Shown here piece after piece: positions 36,314 through 60,382 of a DNA stretch of 64,000 nt (position 1 is the first letter of the stretch; every line of letters begins with the position of its first letter). The stretch lies in sequence record PP993145.1, one strand, 5' to 3'. Under the pieces are notes generated by a model, which was not told the DNA's origin, made no database searches, and saw nothing but the letters and a program-made list of their open reading frames with translations. A program made the translations under genes and the position numbers. This stretch comes from Escherichia phage phiP4.

Positions 36314-36323
36314 CTGATTTAAA

Positions 36324-38759: not shown

Positions 38760-38775
38760 GGCTTTTCACCTTCTG

Positions 38776-44368: not shown

Positions 44369-44369
44369 A

Positions 44370-45131: not shown

Positions 45132-45416
45132 TCCTATAGTGTACTTCGCTAACAGAGGATCAACAAAAAGATCTTGTTTATCAACTTACAAATATATTAT
45201 ACCAATATATACAGTAAAAAGCAACTACAATTTTAAATAAGCCTATGATATTGCATTTAAATAAAAAATTTGCTTGCTTTTAACGTGAGATGTGTGATAC
45301 TAGATAATCATTTTATATCGCGTGCACGAGTGCGTGATTATACAATTTTTAATAGAGATTGGCAAATAAAATTTTTTGACTCAGATCATGTTACAGAACT
45401 TTATAGTAAAATATTG

Positions 45417-45445
45417 TTGACATCCGCCCTCGAATGAGTTATAAT
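45417..45445 (+). promoter_or_regulatory. sigma70 promoter TTGACA-N17-TATAAT upstream of nrdD
   Basis: Perfect consensus hexamers with 17-nt spacer. Confidence 0.65.
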
Positions 45446-45474
45446 AGTAGTCTTAGTTAGAGAAGGAGAGTATA

Positions 45475-47349
45475 ATGAATCGCAATGAAGAACTAAAGTA
45501 TAAAGAAATGCAGGCGTTAATTAGAAACTGCAAAGAGATTATCGAAGGGTCAGCAGATGAAGAGCTGCTGTTTAATAATGCTAATAAACCCTCAGAACGT
45601 TTCCCTACACAAAGGGATATGCTTGCAGGTGAGTTGAGTAAGTATCTGATTCTAGAAGAAATGCCAATTCAGATTCGAAATGCTCATATGATTGGGGATA
45701 TTCATTTCCATGATGCTGATTATGCTGCATTAGGCATGACTAACTGTTGCCTGGTAGCTCTGGAAGATATGTTAAAGAATGGTATGAAGGTTGGTAATGC
45801 TGAAATTAGCACTCCAAACTCTATCACTACTGCGGCGGCTATCACTGCTCAGATTATCACTCAAGTTAGCTCCCATCAGTATGGTGGTACTTCTGTAGAT
45901 CGCCTTGATGAAGTATTAGCCCCTTATGTTCGTAAATCCTATGACAAAAATCATGCGTTTGCAAAACGTTGGACTAAGGATGAAGCCAAAGCATCTGTAA
46001 TGGCTACGGAGATGACTGAAAAAGAAGTCTATGACGCTTGTCAGGGTTTAGAATATGAAATCAATACCATGTTTAACTCTAATGGTCAGAGTCCATTTAT
46101 TACCTTTGGTTTTGGTCTAGGAACTTCCTGGGAAGCACGTCTAGTACAGAAAGCAATACTGAAAGTACGCATGGATGGTTTAGGTATCAATAAACGTACA
46201 GCTATCTTCCCAAAACTGGTATTTGTACTTCGTGATGGCGTAAATATGAAACCAGGAGATGTTAATTATGACATCAAGAAGTTAGCTATGAAATGTACTG
46301 CTGAACGTATGTATCCAGATTATATCAGCTATGACAAAGTTGTAGAAGTTACTGGAGACTACAAAGTTTCTATGGGCTGCCGTTCATTCCTAGCTGCTAC
46401 AGAAGATGGTGAAACTGCCGGTCGTAATAACTTAGGTGTTGTTTCTGTAAACTTGCCTAGAATTGCTATCGAAGCTGAAGGAAATATTGACCTATTCTTT
46501 GATTTGCTTGAGCTACGTGTGGATACAGCATTAAAAGCGTTGGAGTGGAGAGTTGATCGCTTAAAATATATCCAAGCTAAAGCTGCACCCATCCTCTATA
46601 TGTCAGGAGCTTTTGGGTTACGCTTGGAGCCTGATGAATATGTATTCGATCATTTCTATAACCGTGCTTCTGTATCCCTAGGGTATATTGGTTGCCATGA
46701 AATGCTACAGTTCATGTTTGGCAAAGATGTAGACACAATGTCCGAGACCTGCATCAAGTTTGTTCAGCGTGTATTGCAGTACATGCGAGATAGGGTAGAT
46801 CAGAAGAAGGAAGAAACTAAGTTAGGTTATAGCCTATATGCTACACCATCGGAATCCCTATGCGATCGTTTTTGTCGTCTAGACCGTGAGTATTTCCCGG
46901 AGCATGAAGATATTCTGTCCAAAGGATACTACACTAACTCGCACCACCTTGATGTAGAACGTAAAGTTGCTCCTAACGTCAAATTTGATTATGAATCTAA
47001 CTTTACTCCGATTGCTTCTGGTGGGTGCATTTCCTATGTAGAACTACCAGATATGAAACGATTCCCAGATGCACTGGAATGGGTTATTAATTATGCCGCT
47101 AGTAAAGTTCATTACTTCGGTATCAATACTCCAGTGGATTCTTGTGGTAAATGTGGATTCTTAGGTGAAACAATAGCATCCGAGGATGGATTTAAGTGCC
47201 CTATCTGTGGTAATCATGACCCCGAAACTCTTGAAGTAACTCGTCGAGTTTGTGGGTATCTTGGAAATCCGGGTGCTCGTCCCTTTAACCCCGGCAAACA
47301 GCACGAGGTGATGGGCAGAGTGAAACATCAGGATATTCGAGCTAAATAA
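45475..47349 (+). CDS. nrdD: anaerobic ribonucleoside-triphosphate reductase (class III RNR, 624 aa)
   Basis: C-terminal glycyl radical motif RVCGYLG and Cys-rich zinc site (CGKCG ... CPICG). Confidence 0.8.
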   Translation: MNRNEELKYKEMQALIRNCKEIIEGSADEELLFNNANKPSERFPTQRDMLAGELSKYLILEEMPIQIRNAHMIGDIHFHDADYAALGMTNCCLVALEDMLKNGMKVGNAEISTPNSITTAAAITAQIITQVSSHQYGGTSVDRLDEVLAPYVRKSYDKNHAFAKRWTKDEAKASVMATEMTEKEVYDACQGLEYEINTMFNSNGQSPFITFGFGLGTSWEARLVQKAILKVRMDGLGINKRTAIFPKLVFVLRDGVNMKPGDVNYDIKKLAMKCTAERMYPDYISYDKVVEVTGDYKVSMGCRSFLAATEDGETAGRNNLGVVSVNLPRIAIEAEGNIDLFFDLLELRVDTALKALEWRVDRLKYIQAKAAPILYMSGAFGLRLEPDEYVFDHFYNRASVSLGYIGCHEMLQFMFGKDVDTMSETCIKFVQRVLQYMRDRVDQKKEETKLGYSLYATPSESLCDRFCRLDREYFPEHEDILSKGYYTNSHHLDVERKVAPNVKFDYESNFTPIASGGCISYVELPDMKRFPDALEWVINYAASKVHYFGINTPVDSCGKCGFLGETIASEDGFKCPICGNHDPETLEVTRRVCGYLGNPGARPFNPGKQHEVMGRVKHQDIRAK

Positions 47350-47354
47350 GCTAA

Positions 47355-47400
47355 TCAGCCGGGTTGCTAGTCGACCTGGCTTTTATTTTATTTGCTTTCA
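47355..47400 (+). terminator. rho-independent terminator after nrdD (imperfect GC hairpin + TTTTATTTTATTT)
   Basis: Hairpin followed by T-run; overlaps the next promoter. Confidence 0.5.
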
Positions 47401-47420
47401 GCCAAAAATTTATATATAAT
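47392..47420 (+). promoter_or_regulatory. sigma70-type early promoter (TTGCTT-N17-TATAAT)
   Basis: Hexamers and spacer read directly; conserved leader follows. Confidence 0.6.
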
Positions 47421-47448
47421 AGATTTATAAATTTGATGAGAGAAAGAT

Positions 47449-47661
47449 ATGAGAGTTCACAAGGTAGATAAAGAACGTATCTATTTTATTATGGATTCTG
47501 GGGCGTATGGTTCCATTCTCCGTGGGGATATAACTAAATTATGTTTAGTAAATACTTGGATGAACGAAGGGAAGATTGATCCTAGGGTGGGATTGTGCTT
47601 ATCCGAACCCGCCCTTTCTATTGCTAATGCAGAAATTGAAATGTTTGAGGAACAAGAATGA
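47449..47661 (+). CDS. hypothetical protein (70 aa)
   Basis: ORF track. Confidence 0.5.
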   Translation: MRVHKVDKERIYFIMDSGAYGSILRGDITKLCLVNTWMNEGKIDPRVGLCLSEPALSIANAEIEMFEEQE

Positions 47662-47861
47662 AAAACGTAAAACATCTTAAATATCGCTTAATTTACAACG
47701 GACGTATGGAAACAGAAGATCTGGCCCAGTTAGCTATTAATTCTAATGAGGTTACAGTGCGTGCGCTGGCAATTGAAAAGTTGCGTGCCTCTTATGAAAA
47801 TCGTGTTATGGAACTAGAGGAGAAACTTTATGGCATTCTCGAAGCTGATGCTACCAGATAA
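47658..47861 (+). CDS. hypothetical protein (67 aa)
   Basis: ORF track; ATGA overlap with previous. Confidence 0.5.
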   Translation: MKNVKHLKYRLIYNGRMETEDLAQLAINSNEVTVRALAIEKLRASYENRVMELEEKLYGILEADATR

Positions 47862-48051
47862 GGGTTTAAACGACGCTTTGGAAAACGCATTAATGCAGCA
47901 GTGGGAAACTGGCTATAAGGATGGTGTTGAATCCTGTGCTACTATGCTAGAAGTTATTGCTAATACCTTAATGGAGAAAGGCAATAAAGAATTAGCTGAG
48001 CTATTAGACAGTATTGGGCAAAACTTCAGAGAACAGGTGAAAAATGCGTAG
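47830..48051 (+). CDS. hypothetical protein (73 aa)
   Basis: ORF track. Confidence 0.45.
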   Translation: MAFSKLMLPDKGLNDALENALMQQWETGYKDGVESCATMLEVIANTLMEKGNKELAELLDSIGQNFREQVKNA

Positions 48052-48859
48052 ATTAATTATTATTAGTGGTGCAGGTTTGAGTGTTGAAAGTGGTGTACGA
48101 GCTTTTCGTACTGATACTGCTAGTGGTAAAGCATTGTGGGATGATTATGATCTAGAAGAGGTATGTAATATTCATGCCTTTCGTGGTAATTTTTATCATA
48201 AAACCCATATGTTTTACAACAAGCGTCGTGAAGAGCTAAAAACTGTTGAACCCAATCTTGCGCATTTGCGTATTGGTGAATGGTATAAACAATATCCAGG
48301 CCAAGTAGTAAACTTGACTACCAACGTTGATGACCTTATTGAGCGTGCTGGCGTTCCACATAGTGACATTCTGCACATTCACGGATATTTAAAAGAGGTT
48401 GTTGTAGCTGATAGCTACAATAGTAGCAATAAACGGATTATTGATGTAGGGTACAATTCTATTGATCCAGACGATTATAAATGGGTTAAACCTAATGTAA
48501 TCTTTTTTGGGGAGCATGCTCCAGCGTACGCAGAAATGTACAATGTTTTTGATGGTATTACCAGTCAAGATATGATCGTTGTGGTTGGTTGCTCTAACCA
48601 AGTAATTAACTTCTACTGGGAATTATTTCCTGTTCTTAATTTGACTGCTGCCAAGCTAATGGTTGTTAACTACTATGATAGTGCCCTAGCGGCGGAACCG
48701 AGCTATCAAGGTATGACTCGTAGTGAGATGTACCAGCTGGAAGAACGCGGTATCCCTTACTGGAGTAAAGGTGCGGTAGATGCTTTCAGTGATCCTGATT
48801 TTATTGCTCGTGTAGAAGCTCATTTAGAGGGTAGACCTTATGTGTCAGGAAATAAGTAA
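48044..48859 (+). CDS. Sir2-family (sirtuin-like) NAD-dependent protein (271 aa)
   Basis: N-terminal GAGLSVESGVRAFR resembles the sirtuin NAD-binding motif GAGIS.ESGI..FR. Confidence 0.6.
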   Translation: MRRLIIISGAGLSVESGVRAFRTDTASGKALWDDYDLEEVCNIHAFRGNFYHKTHMFYNKRREELKTVEPNLAHLRIGEWYKQYPGQVVNLTTNVDDLIERAGVPHSDILHIHGYLKEVVVADSYNSSNKRIIDVGYNSIDPDDYKWVKPNVIFFGEHAPAYAEMYNVFDGITSQDMIVVVGCSNQVINFYWELFPVLNLTAAKLMVVNYYDSALAAEPSYQGMTRSEMYQLEERGIPYWSKGAVDAFSDPDFIARVEAHLEGRPYVSGNK

Positions 48860-49352
48860 TACTCCAATTATTTTTCTAGACATTGATGGGGTGCTCAATT
48901 CGAGCATCTCCCAATATCATGCGCCTGATGATGAAAAGATTTTCTTTGGAAGTGATTGGGTTTTCAAACCGCTTCTCAAGGCTTTTCAGGACTTTATTCG
49001 TCCTTCTCCAATAATGATTGTTGGAGTATCATCTTGGTTCTCTGTCAGAAATGAGATGGAGAACGTTCAGATTATGACCGGATTAGGTCTTATCGATCGT
49101 TTTCTTGGTACAACGGATTTTACTGGGGGTGGATTATCTAGGGGTAATTCTGTTCTTCGCTTCGTTGAAAAGCATAAGCTCAAACATTGGTGTGTGCTTG
49201 ATGATGCGGGTGCTATGATGTATCAGTATCCAACGGTTATAGTCAACGGTAGGACTGGAATAAATCTTCAAGATTTAAGAGCTGTTAGCTATATGTTAGA
49301 ATTTAGTCCGGATCTTGAAATGTGTAAATCCTTACAACAATTTAAGGTGTAA
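48840..49352 (+). CDS. HAD-superfamily phosphatase-like protein (170 aa)
   Basis: Motif I FLDIDGVLN near the N-terminus. Confidence 0.5.
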   Translation: MCQEISNTPIIFLDIDGVLNSSISQYHAPDDEKIFFGSDWVFKPLLKAFQDFIRPSPIMIVGVSSWFSVRNEMENVQIMTGLGLIDRFLGTTDFTGGGLSRGNSVLRFVEKHKLKHWCVLDDAGAMMYQYPTVIVNGRTGINLQDLRAVSYMLEFSPDLEMCKSLQQFKV

Positions 49353-49354
49353 AT

Positions 49355-49783
49355 ATGTTCAACAATGTATTCTCTAAAGAAGCTAACCCAATTTTGGTTA
49401 ACTTTTGGCGTACTCTCCCAGCTAGCCTGTATAATGAGACTATTAACTCTTTGAAAATATGGTGTGAGAATAACGAAATCTCCTTTGCTTTTAAAGATGA
49501 TATTGATGAGGCTCCCTGTATTGGTTTAATTGTTCAGGTAGAGGAGGGTCTTGAAGAGATTGTCGGCTGGAAAGAGTTAGATGAAATGGGCTTAGTTTTT
49601 GCATTAAACTATAAGCTGTTTATGCCTGCTAAGCATCGCCTCGTTGTTAACTATAAAACTAGTGAATCTCCTGGTTTTCAGGTTAATGAACGTTATGGTT
49701 GGTCTTACTCACCGGAAGAAGTAAATGAGGGGATTCAGAAACTTCGACGTTTCGGGTATATGATCCCAGGTTTAACTGCTTAA
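49355..49783 (+). CDS. hypothetical protein, tandem paralog A (142 aa)
   Basis: Shares blocks with the next ORF (DEAPCIG/DDPCVG, MGLVFALN/MGLIVALN, PGL C-terminus). Confidence 0.5.
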   Translation: MFNNVFSKEANPILVNFWRTLPASLYNETINSLKIWCENNEISFAFKDDIDEAPCIGLIVQVEEGLEEIVGWKELDEMGLVFALNYKLFMPAKHRLVVNYKTSESPGFQVNERYGWSYSPEEVNEGIQKLRRFGYMIPGLTA

Positions 49784-49792
49784 GGAGGCAGA

Positions 49793-50185
49793 ATGGAACA
49801 AGTATATTGGCGTCAGATTGATCCTAGTTTGGTGAAACGTGCGGAGAAGCTGCTACAACGTTGGTTGGGGGTAAGACAAGCCTCCTTCACTTTTCCGGAG
49901 CAGCAAATAGATGATCCCTGTGTTGGTGTTTTCCTATCCGGCTACGCGGGGGGATGGGAGTTGGATTGGAATGAATTGTCTGCTATGGGCTTGATTGTTG
50001 CCCTAAACTTCTCTTTGTTCCATCCACGTGGTTTGGCCATATGTCGTGTGCCGGATGATGGTTGTTCGCCATATCTTTTACAGGTGGAAGATGATATTTG
50101 GGAGTACACTCCAGATATTCTCGCAGAAGCTAAAGAACAATTAAATCGTGTTGGGATTTATGTTCCGGGCCTAAATGATGAATGA
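49793..50185 (+). CDS. hypothetical protein, tandem paralog B (130 aa)
   Basis: Paralogous to the previous ORF. Confidence 0.5.
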   Translation: MEQVYWRQIDPSLVKRAEKLLQRWLGVRQASFTFPEQQIDDPCVGVFLSGYAGGWELDWNELSAMGLIVALNFSLFHPRGLAICRVPDDGCSPYLLQVEDDIWEYTPDILAEAKEQLNRVGIYVPGLNDE

Positions 50186-50276
50186 TTTTTATTAGCTCAA
50201 CTCTGATTACCGAGTCATTTTGGCTCGGTTTTATCCGTACTCAAGACCAATGATAGCACCATCCGGAAAATTTTAC

Positions 50277-50305
50277 TTGCAGGATGCCCAAAATCTTGAT
50301 ATAAT
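50277..50305 (+). promoter_or_regulatory. sigma70-type promoter (TTGCAG-N17-TATAAT) about 500 nt upstream of the large ATPase gene
   Basis: Hexamers and spacer read directly. Confidence 0.5.
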
Positions 50306-50804
50306 ATTTATATTGAATTGAGAGACATTAGTAAAAATTGATTTTGCTAATTTTTCTTGTTTACAATCCGCGATACGGAACAGTTAGGCTGCCCCATTAA
50401 GGGTTGTTTTAACTGTTACGTGTTAGTTTTTAAACAAATAGTTAATAGAATACTTAGCGATCTACATCCCGTAGGAACCCTGGTAAGGCCTCGAAGCAAC
50501 CTAGTGTGAGGTGGTTGTGAAGTGAGACGGGAGGAGTGAAAAACTCCGAGAAGTGATGACGTAAGGTATACTGCATCTAGTATGAGCTAGTACATGAAGC
50601 ATTAGGTGAGCAAATCTGGCTTAGCGGCCATCCTCAAGGATTTGTGCGGTATAGTGAAGCGGCAGTGTAGCGTGAAAGTGGAAGTTGCCACCCCACTTCA
50701 GTATTTGCAATTAATTTGTTGAGAAATTGACAGTAACAGTTGTTCTATTCTTTCTGAATAGTCCTAAAGAAAACTTATTTCATTTCCAACACAGGAGTAT
50801 TGTT

Positions 50805-53594
50805 GTGTTCTCAATCCTACAAGGTCATGCAGGATTTCATCGCGACTTAGCCACAGGCATTTGGCGAGAAGTTAAAGCAGAAGACTATCTTTTTGCTAAA
50901 AGATTTTCCTCAAAGCATCCTGAAGGTAAACCAGCTTCAATGCCCTTCAAGTTTGATGTAATTGATGAAGTTGATCCTCAAACCCTAGTAGAAATGCTCC
51001 CTCTTATGAGACGTTTAACGTCTGACCCTCATATCGTTGCGGTACGAGGTCGATGTCTTGCACCTAAAAATAATGTGCGACGTAAGAAGGGCAACTTTAA
51101 TGTATCTAATCCAAGTCATATAATTGCAATGGATGTGGATGGTATTGTAGATACAGGTGGTTGTAACAAGTTTGATCTTGTTGGCATGGCTCGACATATT
51201 ATTAGAATGTTAAATAGTATTAGTGAGGATATGTTTCCTCTTGATGCAGGGTTTATCGCTCATGCATCGTCTTCGGCTGGGCTAAAACCAGGTATCCGAA
51301 TGCACTTAATACTAGAATCTAATGTTAAGGTAACTCAGGGTCAAATCAAGTTCTTATTTACATCTATCAACGAAAGTAGTAGACAAAAGTATGGCTTTGA
51401 TATTGCCGACTTAGCTTATTACTCTTCCGTACAGCTCCATTATTTCGCAGATCCGTTATTTACTGATGGTATAGTAGATCCGTTTAAAGCGGAGGGTGCT
51501 TCACGTCTGGTATTTGTTAAGGGTTCTAAAGTAAATTTACCAAATAATCTGGTTGACTATGAAACAACTAGAGGTGAGTTTAAGGAGGAGTTTTACTCTT
51601 TACTCGATCAAATTAAAGGTAAAAAAGCTGCCTCTGATAAAGTAGAGGAAACTATCAGCGAACTAGAAGAAGCTGAGGATGGAGTGTATCTACGTATCAT
51701 ACCTAAACTCTATCACAGAGCTTTAGAGGATGGTGTTGATTTTGCATGGCTAGAAAAAGAAATCCGTCCAGCCTTATCAGAATATATTGCAACTAAAGAT
51801 AATAGTCGTAATATTCAAGATTACTTTAATAATGGTCGTAAACAGGCTCTGAAGGCGTTTGTTAATAATTCTAAACGCGATATACCTGATGTTTTAAAAG
51901 GTATTCCACTTAAAAAGCTAGAAACTAATTCTCTAGAAACTGATAACTTCTTGAAATTAAATACTGTACCACCAGAAGGTTATATGACTTTTGTAAAAGC
52001 AAGTCTAGGTACAGGTAAAACTACGGCGGTTGTGCGTTGGTTAGATTCAGGAGTTATTAAAGGTAATTTCTTAGCAATTACCAACACTCGAGCACTGGTA
52101 TCTTCAAATGCTAAGAAATTTAGTGCAGGACAATATGATAAGTCTGTAGATATGCTTAATTTTAAGCGTGGCGCTATTGACCGTATGTCCACAACTATTC
52201 ACTCTTTGCATAAGTTCAAGAGTTTTATTGGTCAAATTGATGCAATCTTTATCGATGAATGTGATGCTGTAATGAATGACCTATTATTCGCCCCGGTTGT
52301 TAAACAACGTCGTGAATGTATTCAGGTTCTTCGGGATATTCTTGCAACTGCAAAAATTATTATATTATCTGATGGGGATATTAGTGCAGAAACAATTGAA
52401 GCATATGGTTCTTTGATTGAGTTCGATAAACCGGTTGCATTTTATAATCATCACCGTAAAATGCTATCAAAAGCTCATGCTTATGAGTTCCCGGATGAAT
52501 CCAGTATTTGGGTTGCACTTCAGACTTCTCTAGAAATGGGTGAGAAATCTATTCTGGTATCTGATTGTGGTCCTGATGAACTGAATGAGAAGGGTATGGC
52601 ACTGCGTCGTAATACGGGTGCATTAGTTAAGGAAATCCACTCAAACTCTACGTCTGATGTAGATATTCGACGTATTCTGGATTACACAACTAATGAGCTA
52701 ATTGACCAACAAATTGATTGCTTATTATGTAGTCCATCCGTAACGAGTGGTGTTGACTTCAACTACTTTGATAACGTATTCGTTATTACTAGAACTAGTA
52801 ATCAAGCGCCAAACATGCGTTTCCAAGCAATCAGGCGCGACCGTGGCGCTCAGAACATTTATTATTTTATTGATAAATCTACTAGTGGATTCTCTGCAGG
52901 TTCTGAACAATATAACATTGATGAAGGTTGGCTGGAGTTAGCACAGCAATTATACGCACGTCGTAGGGAGCTGGAGTCTAGGAACTATACTAGTACTTTA
53001 CGTTATTACTTGCTTGATCAGGGTGCAACTATTGATATTTTCAGTGAAAGCTGGGGAACTATCGAAGGTGCAGGAAAAGAGTATACGGAAGAGCGAATCA
53101 AAGCTATTTTGTATTCAACTCCTGATTATTGTGCTCCACGCCATGCAGATGCGTATGAAGCTAAACTACTTCTTGTTCGCTATTATCATCTTGAGTCTAT
53201 TAAAGATGTAACAGTTGAGCACGTTGAACAATATATCAAGGATAAACCGAATGATCGAGCGGCATTCTTCCATAAAATGCACGAGATGTTCTGGGAAGAT
53301 ATTAAGAAGTGTTCAAATGTCACTATCAAACCATTCATAGAAGCTCTGAAAGGTAAGAAGAAAGATTTCTTCCTTAAAACAGGCCAGAGTGCTAACCCAA
53401 AATATGCAAGAATGTATCTTGGTATGATGGGTATTGGTAAGGATATGAACACGGAGAATATTGTAGACTGGTACAGAACCTATTGTAAAATCGAGTGTAT
53501 GCCAATCCCGTATAAGTTTATGACTGATGAGGAGAAACATATGCATGATGAAGCAATGGCAGAGCTAGGTGCTAGAAATGACAGTGAAGAATAA
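50805..53594 (+). CDS. large P-loop NTPase, putative replication helicase or origin-binding protein (track ORF 50727..53594; GTG start at 50805)
   Basis: Walker A SLGTGKTT, Walker B-like FIDECD; AGGAG RBS before GTG. Confidence 0.6.
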   Translation: MFSILQGHAGFHRDLATGIWREVKAEDYLFAKRFSSKHPEGKPASMPFKFDVIDEVDPQTLVEMLPLMRRLTSDPHIVAVRGRCLAPKNNVRRKKGNFNVSNPSHIIAMDVDGIVDTGGCNKFDLVGMARHIIRMLNSISEDMFPLDAGFIAHASSSAGLKPGIRMHLILESNVKVTQGQIKFLFTSINESSRQKYGFDIADLAYYSSVQLHYFADPLFTDGIVDPFKAEGASRLVFVKGSKVNLPNNLVDYETTRGEFKEEFYSLLDQIKGKKAASDKVEETISELEEAEDGVYLRIIPKLYHRALEDGVDFAWLEKEIRPALSEYIATKDNSRNIQDYFNNGRKQALKAFVNNSKRDIPDVLKGIPLKKLETNSLETDNFLKLNTVPPEGYMTFVKASLGTGKTTAVVRWLDSGVIKGNFLAITNTRALVSSNAKKFSAGQYDKSVDMLNFKRGAIDRMSTTIHSLHKFKSFIGQIDAIFIDECDAVMNDLLFAPVVKQRRECIQVLRDILATAKIIILSDGDISAETIEAYGSLIEFDKPVAFYNHHRKMLSKAHAYEFPDESSIWVALQTSLEMGEKSILVSDCGPDELNEKGMALRRNTGALVKEIHSNSTSDVDIRRILDYTTNELIDQQIDCLLCSPSVTSGVDFNYFDNVFVITRTSNQAPNMRFQAIRRDRGAQNIYYFIDKSTSGFSAGSEQYNIDEGWLELAQQLYARRRELESRNYTSTLRYYLLDQGATIDIFSESWGTIEGAGKEYTEERIKAILYSTPDYCAPRHADAYEAKLLLVRYYHLESIKDVTVEHVEQYIKDKPNDRAAFFHKMHEMFWEDIKKCSNVTIKPFIEALKGKKKDFFLKTGQSANPKYARMYLGMMGIGKDMNTENIVDWYRTYCKIECMPIPYKFMTDEEKHMHDEAMAELGARNDSEE

Positions 53595-53811
53595 AAAATG
53601 GGAAACAAGGAAGTTCCCAGTAAAAGAGCGTAAAGTTCCTGTTTACGACACTTCGGAAAAGCTATGTAGGGTGGTACCACATAGATTAGCTGGCATCCCT
53701 AACATATCCGAGTGGTTACTTAAACAACGGAAAACAAACGTGTCTCTTCGCATCGGCTTTGAGTTAGATAAAGTCTATGCTGAACTTGCTTCTTTGCTCA
53801 AGGAATCGTAA
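53569..53811 (+). CDS. hypothetical basic protein (80 aa)
   Basis: ORF track; overlaps the 3-prime end of the ATPase gene. Confidence 0.35.
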   Translation: MLEMTVKNKKWETRKFPVKERKVPVYDTSEKLCRVVPHRLAGIPNISEWLLKQRKTNVSLRIGFELDKVYAELASLLKES

Positions 53812-53819
53812 AAATTTAT

Positions 53820-53848
53820 TTGCTTTCAGGAAAATTTTTCTGTATAAT
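53820..53848 (+). promoter_or_regulatory. PN25-like strong early promoter (TTGCTT-N17-TATAAT) with leader ATTCATAAATTTGAGAGAGGAGTT
   Basis: Near-exact match to the phage T5 PN25 promoter and leader as recalled. Confidence 0.75.
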
Positions 53849-53879
53849 AGATTCATAAATTTGAGAGAGGAGTTTAAAT

Positions 53880-54584
53880 ATGGCTGGTTCTCGTAGAAAG
53901 AAACACATTCATGAAATCCCGGATGAGGTCTTTAAAAAGGTTATAGAGCATCTGGAGAACGGGGGCACTAAGAAAGCAGCATGTGAAATGCTCGGCGTAT
54001 CATCCAATCCAACTATGGAAAGGATGATTGAAGAATGGCAAGACCGCCAGATTCAAGTTGCCGAAATGAAGAAAAAGAAACGTGGCACACTTATTGAGGG
54101 CATCGAGTTAGCTAACGTTATTGAGCAGTATTTATCTGGTGATTCTTTCGAAGAAATTGCCGATCGTAATTACCGCTCTGTAGCAATGGTTAAATCTGTT
54201 CTGGAACGATATGGTGCTCTACTTCGTTTGAACGATATTGTAGATCCATTGAATCCCCCAATTATTCCTGATGATGCTGTAGCAGAAGAATTTGCAGTTG
54301 GTGAGCTTGTTTGGGTTCCTGGATACCAGTGTATCGGTGAAATCAAAAAAGCAATGGATAATCCTGTTGGTTGTTACCGTGTATGGCTTCTATCGGAAGG
54401 CAAACAACAGAACGTCCATTATATGAATTACGAGCTGGCCTCTGTTAAACATCTGGAAAAGCTAGGGGTTGACGTAAAGTCTCTGGGATATAAATGGACT
54501 CGTGAAGAAATTATTACGTTGATTAACGAAGCTGTTAAGGCTGCCCTGAAACTTGATAAAGAAAAAGGAAAACGCCGTGAGTAG
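53880..54584 (+). CDS. early protein (234 aa) expressed from the PN25-like promoter
   Basis: ORF track; strong RBS GAGAGG. Confidence 0.6.
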   Translation: MAGSRRKKHIHEIPDEVFKKVIEHLENGGTKKAACEMLGVSSNPTMERMIEEWQDRQIQVAEMKKKKRGTLIEGIELANVIEQYLSGDSFEEIADRNYRSVAMVKSVLERYGALLRLNDIVDPLNPPIIPDDAVAEEFAVGELVWVPGYQCIGEIKKAMDNPVGCYRVWLLSEGKQQNVHYMNYELASVKHLEKLGVDVKSLGYKWTREEIITLINEAVKAALKLDKEKGKRRE

Positions 54585-54828
54585 GCTAACTGATTTGCTT
54601 AAAGATGGGGAAGTAAAAACTCTCTATCGTAGAAGCTGGGATAATGATAATAATGGCTTAGTATTACTAACTCTAGATGCTGACTCAGATGTAGTTACCC
54701 AACATACCTGGGTAGCTGGTAATTATCCCTATAGTGAGGTTGTTACGTTAACAGTATGCGAAGCTATTGCCGACGATTGGGAGGTTGCCAGCATCGATGA
54801 TATGCTCGCTGTTGGCCTGGTGGAGTAA
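54553..54828 (+). CDS. hypothetical protein (91 aa)
   Basis: ORF track. Confidence 0.5.
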   Translation: MIKKKENAVSRLTDLLKDGEVKTLYRRSWDNDNNGLVLLTLDADSDVVTQHTWVAGNYPYSEVVTLTVCEAIADDWEVASIDDMLAVGLVE

Positions 54829-54845
54829 CTACAGAAAAATTTCAG

Positions 54846-54874
54846 TTGCTTAATCCTATAATTCTTGATATAAT
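54846..54874 (+). promoter_or_regulatory. sigma70-type early promoter (TTGCTT-N17-TATAAT)
   Basis: Hexamers and spacer read directly. Confidence 0.55.
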
Positions 54875-54931
54875 ATTCTCATAGTTTGAAAGAACTATTC
54901 TGTTTAATTCTTAATTAAGGAAATATAAAAT

Positions 54932-55342
54932 ATGACTACTCCAACTCAGTGGACTGATGAACTGTTCGAAAAAATGTCTTCCGAATACGTTGCTCGTATG
55001 GAGCAATTCCCCGAGGATGAACGTCCGGGTGTTAGCATGGAAATTGTTAGCGAAATTGCCCAGGAAAATGGTGTAACTCCGAACGGTTTTCGTATGAAGC
55101 TGACTAAAGCAGGTTTGTATATCAAGAAAGCTGCTGGCTCCGCTTCTAAATCTAGCGCATCTACTGGAGAAAAAGCTTCTGGTGGTTCTCGTACTTCCAA
55201 AGCTCAAGCTCATGCCGATCTTCGTTCAGCATTCTCTGATGCTGGCCTAGCACCAGATTTTCTGGATGATGCAATTATCGACAAACTGACCGGTAAAGCG
55301 GCCGCTCATCTGGCAGAAGCAATCCGAGCTATCACTAAGTAA
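54932..55342 (+). CDS. hypothetical protein (136 aa)
   Basis: ORF track. Confidence 0.55.
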   Translation: MTTPTQWTDELFEKMSSEYVARMEQFPEDERPGVSMEIVSEIAQENGVTPNGFRMKLTKAGLYIKKAAGSASKSSASTGEKASGGSRTSKAQAHADLRSAFSDAGLAPDFLDDAIIDKLTGKAAAHLAEAIRAITK

Positions 55343-55379
55343 TTTTTAGATAAATCCACCAACAAAAGGAACTACAGTT

Positions 55380-55676
55380 ATGACCAAAGCTGAAATTATC
55401 GCACAATGTGAAAAATTTGGTGAGTTTTATCTTCATTACGAGAAACTTCGTCAGAAAGGAACCACGTACCTTCAGGGTACGATGGAATTTGATCCAGCCC
55501 AAGATAAATATCTGGCTGAGCGTATTAAACGTGAACGTATTCGTAAAGCGAAAGATGATGAGATCCTTGTCTTCTCTCGTACTAATGATAGCTTCCGTTT
55601 TATTCCTGTCGAGAAAGTCCGTCGTGTGACTAGCCTCCAATCAGAGTTAGATCGTGCTTCTCCAGTAGGCCGATAA
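55380..55676 (+). CDS. hypothetical protein (98 aa)
   Basis: ORF track. Confidence 0.5.
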   Translation: MTKAEIIAQCEKFGEFYLHYEKLRQKGTTYLQGTMEFDPAQDKYLAERIKRERIRKAKDDEILVFSRTNDSFRFIPVEKVRRVTSLQSELDRASPVGR

Positions 55677-55726
55677 GAAACCAATTAGCCCCTATATGGG
55701 GCTTTTTGTGTATTTGGGATATGTAA

Positions 55727-56035
55727 ATGAGCGAACAGGTAAATCAAAACTATGAAGGACACGTTGATGACCAGTCCATCATACTTTGGGAGAAGGAGGG
55801 AGAACAAGTAAGATTAACAGTATCTGAATTTCGTGGGAATCTATACATGGGTATTCGTTACTGGCTTCTTGATATTAATGATGAATGGTTTCCAACGAAA
55901 TCTGGCTTCTCTTTTCCTTACACCCTAGAAACAACATCACAGCTTTTCTACGCGTTTACACAGATTCTTAGCGAATCTGAGGTTTTGCATGAAGTACAGA
56001 AACGAGCTGAAGAACTCAAAGCCAAGAATGCCTAG
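55727..56035 (+). CDS. hypothetical protein (102 aa)
   Basis: ORF track. Confidence 0.5.
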   Translation: MSEQVNQNYEGHVDDQSIILWEKEGEQVRLTVSEFRGNLYMGIRYWLLDINDEWFPTKSGFSFPYTLETTSQLFYAFTQILSESEVLHEVQKRAEELKAKNA

Positions 56036-56062
56036 TTCTTGGCTTTTTCTTTATAAATGTAT

Positions 56063-56091
56063 TTGCTTTCAACTCAGTTTTGTTATATAAT
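56063..56091 (+). promoter_or_regulatory. sigma70-type early promoter (TTGCTT-N17-TATAAT)
   Basis: Hexamers and spacer read directly. Confidence 0.6.
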
Positions 56092-56122
56092 ATTTATATA
56101 AATTAATGAGAGATATAAATAA

Positions 56123-57094
56123 ATGACTAATGTAAAAGAATTTATTAAACGCTGTCAAGAAGCATATTATCAAGGCATGTCTTTAATCTCTGATGAAGAA
56201 TATGATCGTCTTATTAAAAGATTCCCACTAGAGGAAGAGATTGGGCCTAAGGGTGATATTCCACATCTGTATCGTATGTATTCTTTACAGAAAGTTTATT
56301 ATAATCGTGGAGATAAACCTCCGTTTAACCCATTAGGTCAGGTAGAAACTGATAAGTTAGATGGTTGTGCGATTTCTCTGCTATATATTAATGGAGAATT
56401 TGTTCAAGCATTAACTCGTGGTAATGGTATTCTAGGGAATGATGTCACAAGCAACGTAAGATTGCTGAACATCCCTAAAAAGATCTCCCAAAAAGTACCT
56501 ACTCAAATCACTGGTGAAGTTCTAATTACAAAAGAAGTAGAAAATAAACGTAACTTTGCCTCTGGTGCTATTAACCTCAAAGATAGTGATGATTTCGTAC
56601 AACGTATCGGAGAAGGTGGTTTAATCTTCGTTGCATACGGTATCCAGTGTTCTGCTGAATCTGTAGGTATTACAGAAGCATATTTAAAAGATATGCTTTG
56701 GCTGGAGAATGAGAACTTCTTAACAGTTGTTAATGTGCGTTCCTTCTTTAAATGGATTCCGACGGACGGTAAAGTTGTTCGTATTAATGATAACAACAAA
56801 TTCTTTCGTGAAGGCTGGACTAATAAATTTCCTCGTGGCGCATTCGCTATTAAAGAAGATGAAGAAGGCGAAATTACAACTCTTACTAAAGTTGAATGGC
56901 AGGTAGGGGCTTCTGGTAAAGTAACTCCAGTTGGTTATTTCGAACCGGTAATTATTGATGATGCTACAATTGTTAAAGCGACTCTTAATAACGTTGATTA
57001 TATTAACTCTCTTGATCTAGAGATCGGTTGCCAGATTCGAGTAATTCGTGCTGGTGGTGTAATCCCGTGTATAGTAGAGCGAGTATACGATTAA
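56123..57094 (+). CDS. NAD-dependent DNA ligase, N-terminal adenylation/OB part of a split enzyme (323 aa)
   Basis: LigA-like Ia domain and KxDG adenylation motif (DKLDG). Confidence 0.75.
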   Translation: MTNVKEFIKRCQEAYYQGMSLISDEEYDRLIKRFPLEEEIGPKGDIPHLYRMYSLQKVYYNRGDKPPFNPLGQVETDKLDGCAISLLYINGEFVQALTRGNGILGNDVTSNVRLLNIPKKISQKVPTQITGEVLITKEVENKRNFASGAINLKDSDDFVQRIGEGGLIFVAYGIQCSAESVGITEAYLKDMLWLENENFLTVVNVRSFFKWIPTDGKVVRINDNNKFFREGWTNKFPRGAFAIKEDEEGEITTLTKVEWQVGASGKVTPVGYFEPVIIDDATIVKATLNNVDYINSLDLEIGCQIRVIRAGGVIPCIVERVYD

Positions 57095-57237
57095 TACATA
57101 ACCCTTTGCTACCCATCTACCATATCGGAATTATAAAGTGGTTATTGACATTTTCGCCGCTTAGGTATATACTATTATCATTCAGTTGAGGGATAGAAAG
57201 TTATGGCGAGGGTAAGCAAAGTTAGTTAAAATTGTAG

Positions 57238-57266
57238 TTGCTAAATGCTTAAATACTTGCTATAAT
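57238..57266 (+). promoter_or_regulatory. sigma70-type early promoter (TTGCTA-N17-TATAAT) between the two ligase halves
   Basis: Hexamers and spacer read directly. Confidence 0.6.
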
Positions 57267-57293
57267 ATTTATATAAATTGATAAGGAAGAAAT

Positions 57294-58067
57294 TTGATGA
57301 AAATCGAAATTCCAACACAATGTCCCTCTTGTGGTTCTAAGCTAGATCTTGTCAACGGACAATTATTCTGTCGGAATAAGTCCAACTGTCCAGCGCAATC
57401 AAGTAAGTTAATTGAGAACTTCTGTACAAAAATGAAGTTAAAGGGCTTTGGTCCGAAAACTATTGAGAAGCTGGAGCTGACGAAGATTTCAGAACTATTT
57501 TACCTAACCGAAGAAGATTTGGTTAGAGCCGTGGGTAGCAAGGTTGCCGCTAAGTTAATTAGCGAATTAAATACTAAAGTTCGCGGAGACATTGACTTTG
57601 GTTCAGTTCTCGGTTCTTTAGGAATCCCTCTAATCGGAGAGGTTGCAGCAAAGAAATTATCCCAAAATTGCACTAGCTTCCACGATGTGAAGGCTGACGG
57701 CAAGGCTGGAGAAAACTACAAAGCCTGGCTAAATTCCCCACAAGGCAAGGATGTTATCGAACTACCGTGGAAATTCTCAACTGGTGCTAAAGCTAAAACC
57801 GTCGTTACTGATGATTTAGTTGCCCAGCCAAATGGAATCGTGGTATGTATTACCGGATCTTTGCAAGATTTTGCAAATCGAACGGATGCAACAAACTATT
57901 TAGAAAGTCTAGGATATACGGTTAAGAAATCCGTTACCAAAGACGTCAAATACCTAATCTGTGAGGATGAATCAAAACGTTCCTCCTCATCTTATAAGAA
58001 AGCCGAAACGAATGGGATAGAAATCCTGTCGATTAAAGAACTATTGGAGAAAAATAATAATGTCTAA
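57294..58067 (+). CDS. NAD-dependent DNA ligase, C-terminal zinc-finger/HhH/BRCT part of a split enzyme (257 aa)
   Basis: Cys4 zinc finger CPSCGSKL ... CRNKSNCPAQ followed by HhH-like and BRCT-like regions. Confidence 0.7.
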   Translation: MMKIEIPTQCPSCGSKLDLVNGQLFCRNKSNCPAQSSKLIENFCTKMKLKGFGPKTIEKLELTKISELFYLTEEDLVRAVGSKVAAKLISELNTKVRGDIDFGSVLGSLGIPLIGEVAAKKLSQNCTSFHDVKADGKAGENYKAWLNSPQGKDVIELPWKFSTGAKAKTVVTDDLVAQPNGIVVCITGSLQDFANRTDATNYLESLGYTVKKSVTKDVKYLICEDESKRSSSSYKKAETNGIEILSIKELLEKNNNV

Positions 58068-58827
58068 ACTGAACTGGAACGTAGAAGGTGTAACCGAGTC
58101 TCTGAAAGCAAAAGCCACTGCTCTGGGTGTTGCTGTAATCTCTCAAGAACAAGTAGCTGCTATCGCTGCTGAACTGGCCGCTGAAACTGGCAAAGATGTT
58201 ACCGCTCGCTCTGTTGGCTCTAAACTGCGTAAAGAAGGTTTTGAAGTACAGAAAGCTAATGAAGTACAGAAATCTCCGTGGACTCCTGAGCAGGAAGCTG
58301 AACTGGTTGATTTCCTGAACGCTCATGCTGGTCAGTATACCTATGCTGAAATCGCTGCTGCTGTAGCTGGTGGTCAGTTCGGTGCTAAGCAGGTACAGGG
58401 TAAGATCCTGAGTCTGGAAATGACCGCTTCTGTTAAGCCAACCGAAAAAGCTGCTGCTGTTCGTTCCTTCACTCCGGATGAAGAAACTGATTTTGTTAAT
58501 CAGGTTGTTGCCGGTGCTACTATTGAAGCTATCGCTGCTCACTTCGGTCGCAATATTAAGCAGATCCGTGGTAAAGCTCTGAGCCTGCTTCGTGAAGGTC
58601 GTATCGCTGCTATGCCGGTACAGGAAACTTCAAGTGCTAAAACTCGTGAAGATCTGTTAGAAGGTCTGGATCTGGTTAACATGACTGTTGCTGAGATCGC
58701 TGAGAAAACTGGTAAGTCTGAGCGTGGTGTTAAATCTATGCTGTCTCGTCGTGGTCTGGTTGCTAAGGACTATGATGGTGCCGCTAAGCGTGCTAAACTG
58801 GATGCAAAAGCTGCGGCTGCTGAATAA
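58060..58827 (+). CDS. Ala-rich abundant early protein, possible DNA-binding protein (255 aa)
   Basis: Codon usage shifts to high-expression codons (GCT, CGT, CTG, GAA). Confidence 0.5.
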   Translation: MSKLNWNVEGVTESLKAKATALGVAVISQEQVAAIAAELAAETGKDVTARSVGSKLRKEGFEVQKANEVQKSPWTPEQEAELVDFLNAHAGQYTYAEIAAAVAGGQFGAKQVQGKILSLEMTASVKPTEKAAAVRSFTPDEETDFVNQVVAGATIEAIAAHFGRNIKQIRGKALSLLREGRIAAMPVQETSSAKTREDLLEGLDLVNMTVAEIAEKTGKSERGVKSMLSRRGLVAKDYDGAAKRAKLDAKAAAAE

Positions 58828-58858
58828 TCTGGTAAATTAAACCTAAGGGGAGGGGGCT

Positions 58859-60382
58859 ATGCTCCTTCCCCTTTTTGCATTTAGAAGGCACGAAAGCGTG
58901 CAAAGGAGAATGACCTTGTTTAACGTGCAAGCTGTAGTGTTGAAGATGCTTCTAGCTTCCGAACAGAAGCAAATAGCATTGGAAACATTCTCAAAACTGC
59001 ATAAAGATCATTTTAATGACGCTTTCTCCTCAATTTACCAAGCCGTCCAGAATTATTATAAAAAATATAACACAATGCCGTCCATTGACGCACTTATGCT
59101 TGAAGCTAATAGGAACGCCCGCCTTTCTCAAGCCCTAGTCGTCTTAGCTAACACTCAAATTCCAGAAGTGAGCATGGAACAGGCACTTGAAGTCCTAGAG
59201 GCCGAATATACACAGGATTTATTCCTGAAGCTTCTAGAAACAGACGTGCTTCAAGATTTAACAATGCTGGATCAGGGAGAAATTCTCAACCGAGTTGCCT
59301 CCCTTCACTTAAAATTAGAAGAGAAAGTAACGAATACTGGAAAAGTATTCAACGCAGATAACATGCGTATTTTCCAGAGAGAAGAAGATACCAAACTGAA
59401 CTTAATCGCTCTTGGTATTTGTAATGAGTTCGACGCTCAAATTGGTTTAGCTCGCACAGAAACGTTACTGCTTGGTGGTTGGCGTGGTACTGGTAAATCC
59501 ATTATCTGTTCAAACATACAGGTTCAGCAATATTTGAATGGGGATATTGCTCCATACTTCTCAATTGAGATGAAAGAACATGAAGTATTTAGACGTAATC
59601 TAGCCATGTTAGCTGGTGTATCAGCATTAGCAATGCGTAATAATACTCTAGAAGGTGCAGCTCTATTGAGATTAGCCAGAACTAGAGCTAGAATGTTTAA
59701 TGGGGGTGAAGAGCTTTTCGATAACTTCGTTAAACAGTATACAATGGCTAAGATGAGTGATTTCTACGATATGGAGAGTAAGCTAATAGAAGGGTATGAG
59801 CTACATACTCCTATGATTATTGTTTATGACCCTGAGCTGTCTATTACAACAGTTGACGTAGAATTAAATAAATTAGTTGCTAGATATGGAGATAAAGTTA
59901 CAGTAGCTTTACTGGACTATATTAACCAAACCCGACTTCCAGACTCTAAAACCATTGATATGTATGACTGGAAAGAACAGATGGTTGTTAGCTCGTCTTT
60001 CAAATCTATCTGCCAGAAACATAACGTGGCTGGTGTAGCTCCTTACCAGATCGATCAAGATGGTAGAACACGTATGTCAAAGGGGATTCTTGATTCCGCA
60101 GACATGGCTGCTAATCTTAATGCTGCAAAAGCTGATAATGGTCAAGGTGCCATTATGTTTGACTTCGTTAAGACTCGTTCTTCTGATAGCGTGAAGTTTA
60201 TGCCTAAAATGAACTGGGAAACTCTGCGAATGGATAACACTACCAACCTAGCAATGGAAGATATATCTCAAATGGAAGCTGAGTTCGTTATCCCTATTGA
60301 GAAGGATAAGCCGGCTCAACCTAAACGTGCTAAGAAAGACAAAACTGAAAATTCAACAGGTGAACAGGCCAGCGATATATGA
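58859..60382 (+). CDS. DnaB-like replicative helicase (507 aa)
   Basis: Walker A GWRGTGKS; GGAGG RBS; position upstream of primase. Confidence 0.6.
   Translation: MLLPLFAFRRHESVQRRMTLFNVQAVVLKMLLASEQKQIALETFSKLHKDHFNDAFSSIYQAVQNYYKKYNTMPSIDALMLEANRNARLSQALVVLANTQIPEVSMEQALEVLEAEYTQDLFLKLLETDVLQDLTMLDQGEILNRVASLHLKLEEKVTNTGKVFNADNMRIFQREEDTKLNLIALGICNEFDAQIGLARTETLLLGGWRGTGKSIICSNIQVQQYLNGDIAPYFSIEMKEHEVFRRNLAMLAGVSALAMRNNTLEGAALLRLARTRARMFNGGEELFDNFVKQYTMAKMSDFYDMESKLIEGYELHTPMIIVYDPELSITTVDVELNKLVARYGDKVTVALLDYINQTRLPDSKTIDMYDWKEQMVVSSSFKSICQKHNVAGVAPYQIDQDGRTRMSKGILDSADMAANLNAAKADNGQGAIMFDFVKTRSSDSVKFMPKMNWETLRMDNTTNLAMEDISQMEAEFVIPIEKDKPAQPKRAKKDKTENSTGEQASDI

What the first reader, a model, noticed from the sequence alone, without database searches (positions are those of the whole stretch)
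56123..58067. NAD-dependent DNA ligase split into two genes with a promoter in between
The adenylation/OB part (56123..57094) and the zinc-finger/HhH/BRCT part (57294..58067) are separate ORFs divided by 200 nt that carries its own consensus promoter (57238..57266). The intervening sequence may be a remnant of an inserted element.
Basis: partly seen in the sequence, partly recalled or inferred. Interest (0 to 1): 0.55.

Follow-up and report, generated by a model that had tools for sequence, protein, structure and literature searches.

The report
T5-type two-gene NAD-dependent DNA ligase
This is the standard two-subunit NAD-dependent DNA ligase of T5-like phages, a real and ancient gene split that is already annotated and has a solved structure in a related phage, so it is ordinary for this virus family.

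Summary
The window is a T5-like phage (Tequintavirus, about 98% identical to many isolates). One ORF (56123..57094) encodes the Ia, adenylation and OB domains of a LigA-type ligase. A second ORF encodes the zinc finger, HhH and BRCT domains; its best start is the ATG at 57297, and it ends at 58067. The ~200-nt gap holds two strong sigma-70 promoters (57145..57173 and 57238..57266), not one.

It is not a sequencing error. The two ORFs are in different frames with at least four stops per frame between them. The break lies at the same OB/Zn linker position in every cultured Demerecviridae sampled, down to about 50% protein identity.

It is not new. T5 annotates dnlj1/dnlj2 with promoters T5P36 and T5P37, many records say "subunit A/B", and PDB 9HU3 is the "PR1 phage heterodimeric DNA ligase" on nicked DNA.

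The "remnant of an inserted element" idea is not supported here: there is no intron and no endonuclease remnant. Two relatives do carry a GIY-YIG gene at this site.

One modest addition: single-gene (fused) orthologues of 555-578 aa exist on metagenomic contigs, two of which have the same gene order, which points to an old fission.

Verdict: already known; low interest.

The parts
56018..56046 (+). Terminator-like hairpin plus T-run that ends the upstream PC4-like gene (55727..56035)
   Evidence: Scan. The corresponding terminator is annotated in AKFV33 and T5. PC4 Pfam hit.
56063..56092 (+). Early promoter of ligA (equivalent to T5P35): TTGCTT-17-TATAAT, followed by the shared motif TATAATATTTATATAAATT
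   Evidence: Read from the sequence. Exact copy of the 19-nt motif at 56086..56104. Annotated promoter at the homologous place in AKFV33 and T5.
56123..57094 (+). Ligase subunit A (323 aa): domain Ia, nucleotidyltransferase and OB fold. Lys78 is the KxDG adenylation lysine.
   Evidence: Pfam. phrog_3359 full length, 3e-176. 9HU3_A, 6e-104. Alignment to E. coli LigA residues 1-393.
57095..57296 (+). Intergenic gap (202 nt to the ATG), with stops in all three frames and no ORF of note
   Evidence: No Rfam family. No similarity to the ORFs inserted in relatives.
57145..57173 (+). Distal promoter for ligB (equivalent to T5P36): TTGACA-17-TATACT
   Evidence: 11 of 12 matches. T5 annotation. Conserved in five genera. 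86% identity to the Klebsiella phage in 57150..57199, among the highest in the locus.
57238..57266 (+).
   Evidence: Similarity extends to Vibrio phages.
57283..57289 (+). Shine-Dalgarno sequence AAGGAAG of ligB, 7 nt before the ATG
   Evidence: Read from the sequence.
57297..58067 (+). Ligase subunit B (256 aa): Cys4 zinc finger, HhH domain and BRCT
   Evidence: Pfam. phrog_3498 full length, 2e-136. 9HU3_B, 2e-81. AlphaFold model with pLDDT 92 that matches 9HU3_B and the C-terminal half of 2OWO.
58060..58827 (+). D5-like transcriptional regulator. Its ATG lies 8 nt inside the end of ligB, so it is co-transcribed and probably translationally coupled with ligB.
   Evidence: phrog_323, 2e-72.
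58845..58873 (+). Strong terminator-like hairpin that ends the ligB-D5 unit
   Evidence: 13 pairs, 8 of them G-C. A terminator is annotated at the homologous place in AKFV33.

Best explanation
This is the heterodimeric NAD+-dependent DNA ligase typical of T5-like phages (Demerecviridae). An ancestral compact LigA gene has been cut at the linker between the OB fold and the zinc finger. Subunit A (Ia-NTase-OB) should react with NAD+ to form Lys78-AMP. Subunit B (Zn-HhH-BRCT) supplies the other half of the DNA clamp. The two proteins associate without a covalent link and encircle and seal nicks as single-chain LigA does. ligA is transcribed from its own early promoter. ligB and the overlapping D5 gene get two further tandem promoters in the gap. 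No terminator is detected after ligA, so they also receive read-through transcripts. Shown here: domain content, catalytic residues, promoter sequences and their conservation, universality of the split, and the existence of a solved heterodimer structure for an orthologue. Inferred: that this phage's two proteins form the same complex and are active, that both promoters fire, and that the split arose by fission of a fused ancestor.
For: The locus is 97-98% identical to many T5-like phages, where the genes are annotated as ligase subunits A and B. A and B match complementary halves of full-length models: phrog_3869 positions 9-381 and 388-654, TIGR00575 up to 378 and from 388. A ends opposite E. 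coli LigA residue 393 and B starts around residue 400. E. coli residues K115, D117, G118, R136, E173, R200, D285, K314 and the Ia residues D32, Y35, D36 are conserved, as is the Cys4 finger. The break is at the same position in Klebsiella, Proteus, Providencia and Vibrio phages. In the phage collection every hit at 37% identity or more to a fused orthologue is in at least two pieces. PDB 9HU3/9I5I contains both chains of the Providencia phage PR1 orthologue (about 55% identity). It is titled 'PR1 phage heterodimeric DNA ligase in complex with 21-mer nicked DNA containing phage nick sequence'. The tandem promoters are conserved in five genera. Published genome papers call them A and B subunits (PMC4319617; PMC3326045). 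Fused orthologues of 555-578 aa sit between PC4-like and D5-like genes, followed by DnaB and primase, on metagenomic contigs.
Against: No experiment on this phage's own proteins is available to me, and I could not find the paper behind 9HU3 in the library. Motif IV carries Arg220 where E. coli LigA has Lys290, and R208 and R277 have no counterpart. The enzyme is therefore divergent, and its activity is inferred from the orthologue. Neither half reaches the NCBIfam LigA cut-off. The direction of evolution is not settled: in a crude NJ tree the fused forms are scattered among the split ones.
Confidence: 0.93

Rival explanations
1. The split was created by a mobile element, a free-standing homing endonuclease gene that landed in the OB/Zn linker. 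The present gap would be what is left after the element was lost (a 'genes in pieces' origin).
For: A 213-aa GIY-YIG ORF (Pfam 2e-5) lies immediately after ligA, overlapping its stop, in Salmonella phages vB_Sen_SG_WM_RUS_R2 and SP3 only. This sporadic distribution is typical of such genes. The gap is a variable site in other relatives, holding 0 to 3 small ORFs.
Against: The window's gap has no similarity to the GIY-YIG gene or to any other inserted ORF. In RUS_R2 the insert lies upstream of the intact promoter block, so the window looks like an empty site, not a scar. None of the spacer ORFs tested in Proteus and Vibrio phages is an endonuclease. The split predates the divergence of all cultured genera, so the two recent insertions say nothing direct about its origin.
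Confidence: 0.15
2. Subunit B has a role of its own beyond completing the ligase, for example binding or guarding T5's site-specific nicks or recruiting partners through its BRCT domain. This would explain why it has its own two conserved promoters and is coupled to D5.
For: ligB has two extra conserved promoters and no terminator is detected after ligA, so its transcription should exceed that of ligA. ligB overlaps D5. The PDB depositors used a 'phage nick sequence' substrate, which suggests that nick specificity is of interest.
Against: This is inference from promoter layout only. The promoters may simply serve D5, which overlaps the end of ligB. In fused orthologues the same domains are part of one chain. 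PR1 has an annotated terminator after ligA, so the read-through part is not general.
Confidence: 0.1
3. The split is an artefact or a pseudogene: a frameshift or sequencing error in one continuous ligase gene.
For: None, beyond the general rarity of split LigA genes.
Against: A and B are in different frames, with at least 4 stops in each frame across 202 nt. The same layout is present in 430 of 441 matching records at 90-99% identity and in genera at about 50% protein identity. Both halves are conserved as proteins, and the orthologue has been solved as a heterodimer.
Confidence: 0.01
4. The two halves are joined at the RNA or translation level (intron splicing, trans-splicing or ribosomal bypass) to give one polypeptide.
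For: An RNA starting after the distal promoter folds better than shuffled controls (z = -3.5).
Against: No Rfam intron or other family is found, even at E-value 10. No conserved pairs appear across five genera. B has its own Shine-Dalgarno sequence and ATG. The PDB entry contains two separate chains whose ends correspond to the ORF ends.
Confidence: 0.01

Closest known systems
Bacteriophage T5 DNA ligase genes dnlj1/dnlj2 (annotated elsewhere as NAD-dependent DNA ligase subunits A and B), with early promoters T5P35, T5P36 and T5P37
   Same: 98.8% DNA identity across the junction. Same two ORFs, same gap, same two promoters, and the same flanking PC4-like and D5 genes.
   Different: Nothing of substance. 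T5's ligB is annotated 9 nt longer at its 3' end.
Providencia phage PR1 heterodimeric DNA ligase, PDB 9HU3 and 9I5I (released 2026-01-14)
   Same: Orthologous two-chain enzyme from another Demerecviridae genus. Chain A aligns to the whole of A and chain B to residues 1-252 of B. Same break point and the same tandem-promoter layout in the gap.
   Different: About 55% identity. The PR1 record annotates a terminator after ligA, which the scan does not find in this window.
Bacterial LigA, e.g. E. coli LigA bound to nicked DNA-adenylate (PDB 2OWO)
   Same: Same domain order (Ia-NTase-OB-Zn-HhH-BRCT), the same catalytic lysine and most of the essential residues I listed from recall, and the Cys4 finger.
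   Different: LigA is one 671-aa chain. The phage enzyme is two chains totalling 579 aa. It lacks about 8 linker residues at the break and has four deletions of about 13-18 aa in Ia/NTase and one in HhH. Motif IV has Arg instead of Lys290 throughout the phage clade.
Fused compact orthologues on metagenomic T5-like contigs (P0031, P0050, P0085, P0098, P0104; 555-578 aa)
   Same: 34-42% identity to both halves, the same deletions and the same motif IV Arg. For the two whose contigs were read (P0098 and P0104), the gene order is the same: PC4-like, ligase, D5-like, DnaB, primase.
   Different: A single ORF with a 5-20 residue linker where the window has a stop, 202 nt and a start. There is no room for a promoter before the D5-like gene.
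'Genes in pieces' created by homing endonuclease insertion, e.g. the nrdA of Aeromonas phage Aeh1 split by mobE (recalled from the literature, not checked here)
   Same: An essential enzyme split at a tolerated position into two adjacent genes whose products reassemble.
   Different: No endonuclease gene lies between the halves in this window. One is present only in two relatives.

Membership tests
NAD+-dependent DNA ligase (LigA family) | Nucleotidyltransferase domain with the motif I KxDG lysine and motifs III, IV and V | tested here: met
   K78-L-D-G aligns to E. coli K115; E132 to E173; D215 to D285; K244 to K314. Motif IV has Arg220 in place of Lys290. Pfam DNA_ligase_aden 2e-23.
NAD+-dependent DNA ligase (LigA family) | N-terminal domain Ia with the NMN-binding residues, which specifies NAD+ rather than ATP | tested here: met
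   Y15/Y16, D24, Y27 and D28 align to E. coli (Y22)/H23, D32, Y35 and D36. The list of essential residues is from my own knowledge of the Shuman laboratory mutagenesis.
NAD+-dependent DNA ligase (LigA family) | OB fold, Cys4 zinc finger, HhH domain and BRCT domain, in that order | tested here: met
   OB Pfam 4e-22 in A. In B: Cys9/12/25/31, HhH and BRCT Pfam hits. The model matches 2OWO and 1DGS.
NAD+-dependent DNA ligase (LigA family) | All domains on one polypeptide | tested here: not met
   Stop at 57092..57094, 202 nt with stops in all frames, and a new start at 57297. Neither half reaches the NCBIfam LigA cut-offs.
NAD+-dependent DNA ligase (LigA family) | NAD+-dependent nick-sealing activity | not testable with these tools
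   Inferred from conserved residues and from the orthologue crystallised on nicked DNA.
T5-type heterodimeric ligase (subunits A and B of Demerecviridae) | Break at the OB/Zn linker into two adjacent same-strand genes | tested here: met
   Same alignment column as in Klebsiella, Proteus, Providencia and Vibrio phages. Full-length matches to the half-specific families phrog_3359 and phrog_3498.
T5-type heterodimeric ligase (subunits A and B of Demerecviridae) | Orthology to a biochemically or structurally characterised member | tested here: met
   9HU3_A 6e-104 and 9HU3_B 2e-81. Source phage identified as PR1 at 100% identity.
T5-type heterodimeric ligase (subunits A and B of Demerecviridae) | Position in the T5 replication module (PC4-like, ligA, ligB, D5, DnaB-like helicase, primase) | tested here: met
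Gene split by a homing endonuclease gene ('genes in pieces') | An endonuclease gene or its remnant between the two halves | tested here: not met
   No ORF and no similarity in the window's gap. Present in RUS_R2 and SP3 only.
Group I or group II intron, or another self-splicing element | A recognisable ribozyme structure between the exons | tested here: not met
   Rfam at E-value up to 10 gives only three chance microRNA/snoRNA matches. No conserved structure.

The most novel reading that the evidence does not exclude
The fission may not be neutral. The OB/Zn linker may have been opened to house strong promoters for the ligB-D5 unit. Fused orthologues leave no room for a promoter before D5. 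The result would be that the DNA-binding B subunit is made independently of, and in excess over, the catalytic A subunit. B could then have a role of its own at T5's site-specific nicks. The comparative data do not exclude this, but they do not show it either.
Probability: 0.1. Interest if true: 0.45.

Novelty: already known. Interest (0 to 1): 0.13.

Why it matters
It matters little as a discovery. The two-gene ligase is a long-annotated hallmark of T5-like phages and has recently been solved structurally in a relative. It remains a clean natural example of a multidomain DNA enzyme that works after being cut at a domain linker. The fused orthologues found here in the same gene order give a ready comparison for asking why the split is kept in all cultured members of the family.

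Tried and rejected
- **Intron or ribozyme in the gap:** Rfam at a permissive threshold found nothing relevant.
- **Regulatory RNA in the leader from the distal promoter:** the single sequence folds with z = -3.5. RNAalifold on five genera predicts no conserved pair, and conservation peaks at the promoters, not in the stem. Rejected as lineage-specific or chance.
- **Mini-ORF at 57204..57230** (8 codons, after a GAGGGA Shine-Dalgarno-like motif): length and sequence are not conserved in the Klebsiella, Providencia or Proteus phages. Not pursued.
- **Endonuclease remnant in the gap:** tblastx and blastn against the gaps of nine phages found only the shared promoter block.
- **Function of the spacer ORFs in Proteus and Vibrio phages:** no Pfam or PHROG assignment, except a DprA-like protein and one family of unknown function in Thalassa.
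- **The insertions behind the two-piece hits:** in the two records examined they lie upstream of ligA, not in the gap.
- **Literature search for a paper on the heterodimeric ligase or on 9HU3:** One hit on 'LigA' was only the word 'ligand'.
- **Counting fission events:** the NJ tree of B domains was too poorly resolved; fused forms are scattered in it.
- **Promoter-like sites inside the fused genes:** the counts are not above the shuffle expectation, so no conclusion was drawn.

Full report
**What is in the sequence**

ORF listing and direct reading confirm two same-strand ORFs.
- The first runs 56123..57094 (323 aa).
- The second runs to 58067. It can start at the TTG at 57294 or, more plausibly, at the ATG at 57297 (256 aa).
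- The ATG is preceded by AAGGAAG at 57283..57289. It is the start annotated in T5 and AKFV33, and it matches the N-terminus of the solved orthologue.
- The two ORFs are in different frames. Each frame of the 202-nt gap has at least four stop codons.

The first protein carries the NAD-ligase adenylation and OB domains. The second carries HhH and BRCT domains and a C-x2-C-x12-C-x5-C zinc finger.

**Where the window comes from**

The 2.2-kb locus matches 441 phage records, 430 of them over most of its length at 90-99% identity. Nearly all are Salmonella, Escherichia or Shigella T5-like phages. The junction region is 98.8% identical to T5 itself. The window also holds the T5-type tRNA cluster. It is therefore a Tequintavirus genome segment.

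**Domain and residue check**

A and B match complementary halves of full-length LigA models. On phrog_3869 they cover positions 9-381 and 388-654. On TIGR00575 they reach position 378 and start at 388. They also match half-specific phage families from end to end: phrog_3359 and phrog_3498.

I aligned the concatenated halves with E. coli LigA and five other Demerecviridae pairs.
- A ends opposite E. coli residue 393 and B begins around residue 400. This is the short linker between the OB fold and the zinc finger.
- The break is in the same place (within two alignment columns) in all six phage pairs.
- E. coli K115, D117, G118, R136, E173, R200, D285 and K314, and the domain Ia residues D32, Y35 and D36, all have identical counterparts.
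- Lys290 of motif IV is Arg220 here and in every member of the clade that I looked at.
- The phage enzyme is compact. It has several deletions of about 13-18 residues in Ia/NTase and one in HhH.

**The gap**

The scan finds two strong plus-strand promoters.
- TTGACA-17-TATACT at 57145..57173.
- TTGCTA-17-TATAAT with an extended -10 TG at 57238..57266.

T5 annotates them as early promoters T5P36 and T5P37, and AKFV33 annotates the proximal one. Both are kept, at the same spacing, in Tequintavirus, Epseptimavirus, and the Klebsiella, Providencia and Proteus phages, although the sequence around them diverges. The proximal promoter region is still recognisable in Vibrio phages. Against a Klebsiella phage, the two promoter blocks are among the best conserved 50-nt bins of the whole locus (84-86%), while the stretch between them is not (62%).

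The -10/initial-transcribed motif TATAATATTTATATAAATT is identical before ligA (56086) and before ligB (57261). With up to three mismatches it occurs 18 times in the window, against 0.19 expected.

No terminator-like site is detected between ligA and the promoters. The unit ends at a strong hairpin at 58845..58873, after D5, whose start lies 8 nt inside the end of ligB. So ligB-D5 should be transcribed from three promoters and ligA from one. This is an inference.

**What the gap is not**

- Rfam finds no intron or other family, even at E-value 10.
- An RNA from the distal promoter folds better than shuffled controls (z = -3.5), but no pair is conserved across five genera.
- An 8-codon mini-ORF after the distal promoter is not conserved.
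- The gap shares nothing but the promoter block with the gaps of nine relatives.

**Comparative picture**

The split is present in every cultured Demerecviridae examined. These include Klebsiella, Proteus, Providencia and three Vibrio lineages at about 50-72% protein identity.

I queried the phage collection with a fused orthologue. Every listed hit at 37% identity or more, whether in the spread sample or among the best 40 for a second fused orthologue, is in two or more pieces. Single-piece hits start only at about 30%, in jumbo phages with ordinary LigA.

The content of the gap varies between lineages.
- No gene in the T5-like, Klebsiella and Providencia phages examined.
- A roughly 59-aa ORF in S132.
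- One to three small ORFs in Proteus and Vibrio phages, including a DprA-like gene in Thalassa.
- A 213-aa GIY-YIG ORF immediately after ligA in RUS_R2 and SP3 only.

In RUS_R2 the insert lies upstream of an intact promoter block, so the window corresponds to the empty site.

**Fused relatives**

An exhaustive profile-free search with subunit B returned 150 best hits. About 100 are stand-alone B-size proteins (225-275 aa). Ten are proteins of 555-578 aa in which the match occupies the C-terminal half. Five of these were read: they have a continuous linker of 5-20 residues at the break and are 34-42% identical to both halves.

Two were located on contigs. Each sits between a PC4-like gene and a D5 orthologue (43-47% identity), followed by DnaB-type helicase and primase, exactly as in the window. 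They are single-member clusters from metagenomes.

This makes fission of a fused ancestor the simplest history. A crude NJ tree scatters the fused forms, so the number and direction of events is open.

**Is it known?**

Yes.
- The T5 record names dnlj1 and dnlj2 with both promoters.
- AKFV33 and many other records say "NAD-dependent DNA ligase subunit A/B".
[quoted passage not shown] Another lists ORF119 and ORF120 together as the ligase (PMC3326045).
- PDB 9HU3 and 9I5I contain both chains of the orthologue from Providencia phage PR1. The source was identified by a 100% tblastn match. The entry is titled [quoted passage not shown] and was released 2026-01-14.
- I could not find the accompanying paper in the held library.

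**Mechanism**

By homology with LigA and with the solved orthologue:
- A binds NAD+ through domain Ia and forms Lys78-AMP.
- B brings the zinc finger, HhH and BRCT modules that grip the duplex.
- The two assemble around a nick and seal it.

My AlphaFold model of B is confident (pLDDT 92) and matches 9HU3_B and the C-terminal half of E. coli LigA on DNA. Complex formation and activity for this particular phage are inferred, not shown.

**Rivals**

- A sequencing error or pseudogene is excluded by the frame and stop pattern and by the conservation.
- RNA-level or translational joining is contradicted by the absence of any ribozyme, by B's own ribosome-binding site, and by the two-chain crystal structure.
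- A homing-endonuclease origin is possible but has no support in this window.
- An independent role for B, or selection for a promoter site ahead of D5, is the most interesting reading not excluded. It rests only on promoter layout.

**Verdict**

It is, however, the textbook arrangement of this phage family and has been structurally characterised. The only modest additions here are three: the tandem promoters are conserved across genera, the gap is a recurrent insertion site, and fused orthologues survive in uncultured relatives.

Noticed in passing
window 19549..32210, minus strand: A cluster of about 24 tRNA genes. ARAGORN finds 22. Rfam adds 27871..27945 and 32139..32210. This is the usual T5-type tRNA region.
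   Followed up: partly
window 10505..57279 (18 sites): The motif TATAATATTTATATAAATT (-10 plus initial transcribed region of T5 early promoters; 'repeat b' in the T5 record) occurs 18 times against 0.19 expected. All copies up to 35.3 kb are on the minus strand and all from 47.4 kb onward are on the plus strand, marking divergent early transcription.
   Followed up: partly
window 57204..57230: An 8-codon mini-ORF (MARVSKVS) lies 9 nt after a GAGGGA Shine-Dalgarno-like motif in the leader of the distal promoter. An ATG is at the same aligned place in the Providencia phage PR1, but the peptide is not conserved.
   Followed up: partly
window 57180..57300: The leader RNA from the distal promoter folds into a long hairpin that pairs with the -10 region of the proximal promoter (z = -3.5). 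No pair is conserved in other genera.
   Followed up: yes
L010 1138..1779 (Salmonella phage vB_Sen_SG_WM_RUS_R2); also Salmonella phage SP3: A free-standing GIY-YIG endonuclease-like gene of 213 aa is inserted right after ligA, overlapping its stop. It is found in only these two phages (three records) of the 50,697-record collection.
   Followed up: yes
L011 about 1145..1335 (Salmonella phage S132): An extra 155 nt in the gap holds an unannotated ORF of about 59 aa (MLEALEKLFWNGPTKVWDM...) with no recognisable relatives among the other gaps.
   Followed up: partly
L008 4112..4672 (Vibrio phage Thalassa); L005 1869..2501 (Proteus phage PL1); Pectobacterium phage My1 and Pantoea phage AAS21: DprA-like (SLOG-type) genes recur next to or between the two ligase genes in distant Demerecviridae. 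This is a possible functional link that I did not explore.
   Followed up: no
L002 624..896 and L003 622..810: Some close relatives (Stokescottia, S124) carry an extra small ORF (90 or 62 aa) between the ligA promoter and ligA. It is absent from the window, so this is a second variable site in the locus.
   Followed up: partly
window 56123..57094, residue 220 of subunit A: Motif IV has Arg where E. coli LigA has Lys290. The substitution is shared by all split and fused members of the compact phage clade that I inspected.
   Followed up: partly
L014 6992..7020 and L013 7177..7205: The fused orthologues each contain one near-consensus promoter-like site (11 of 12 matches, with TG) inside the part homologous to subunit B. 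Overall counts are not above chance.
   Followed up: no
public records seen: Annotation oddities. The ligA of Proteus phage PL1 is labelled 'DprA-like'. 'Listeria phage LM 4-11-1' fragments are 100% identical to this subunit A, so they are probably T5-like contaminant contigs. In vB_Kpn_3 and INF11 subunit A matches in two pieces, probably because of frameshift errors.
   Followed up: no
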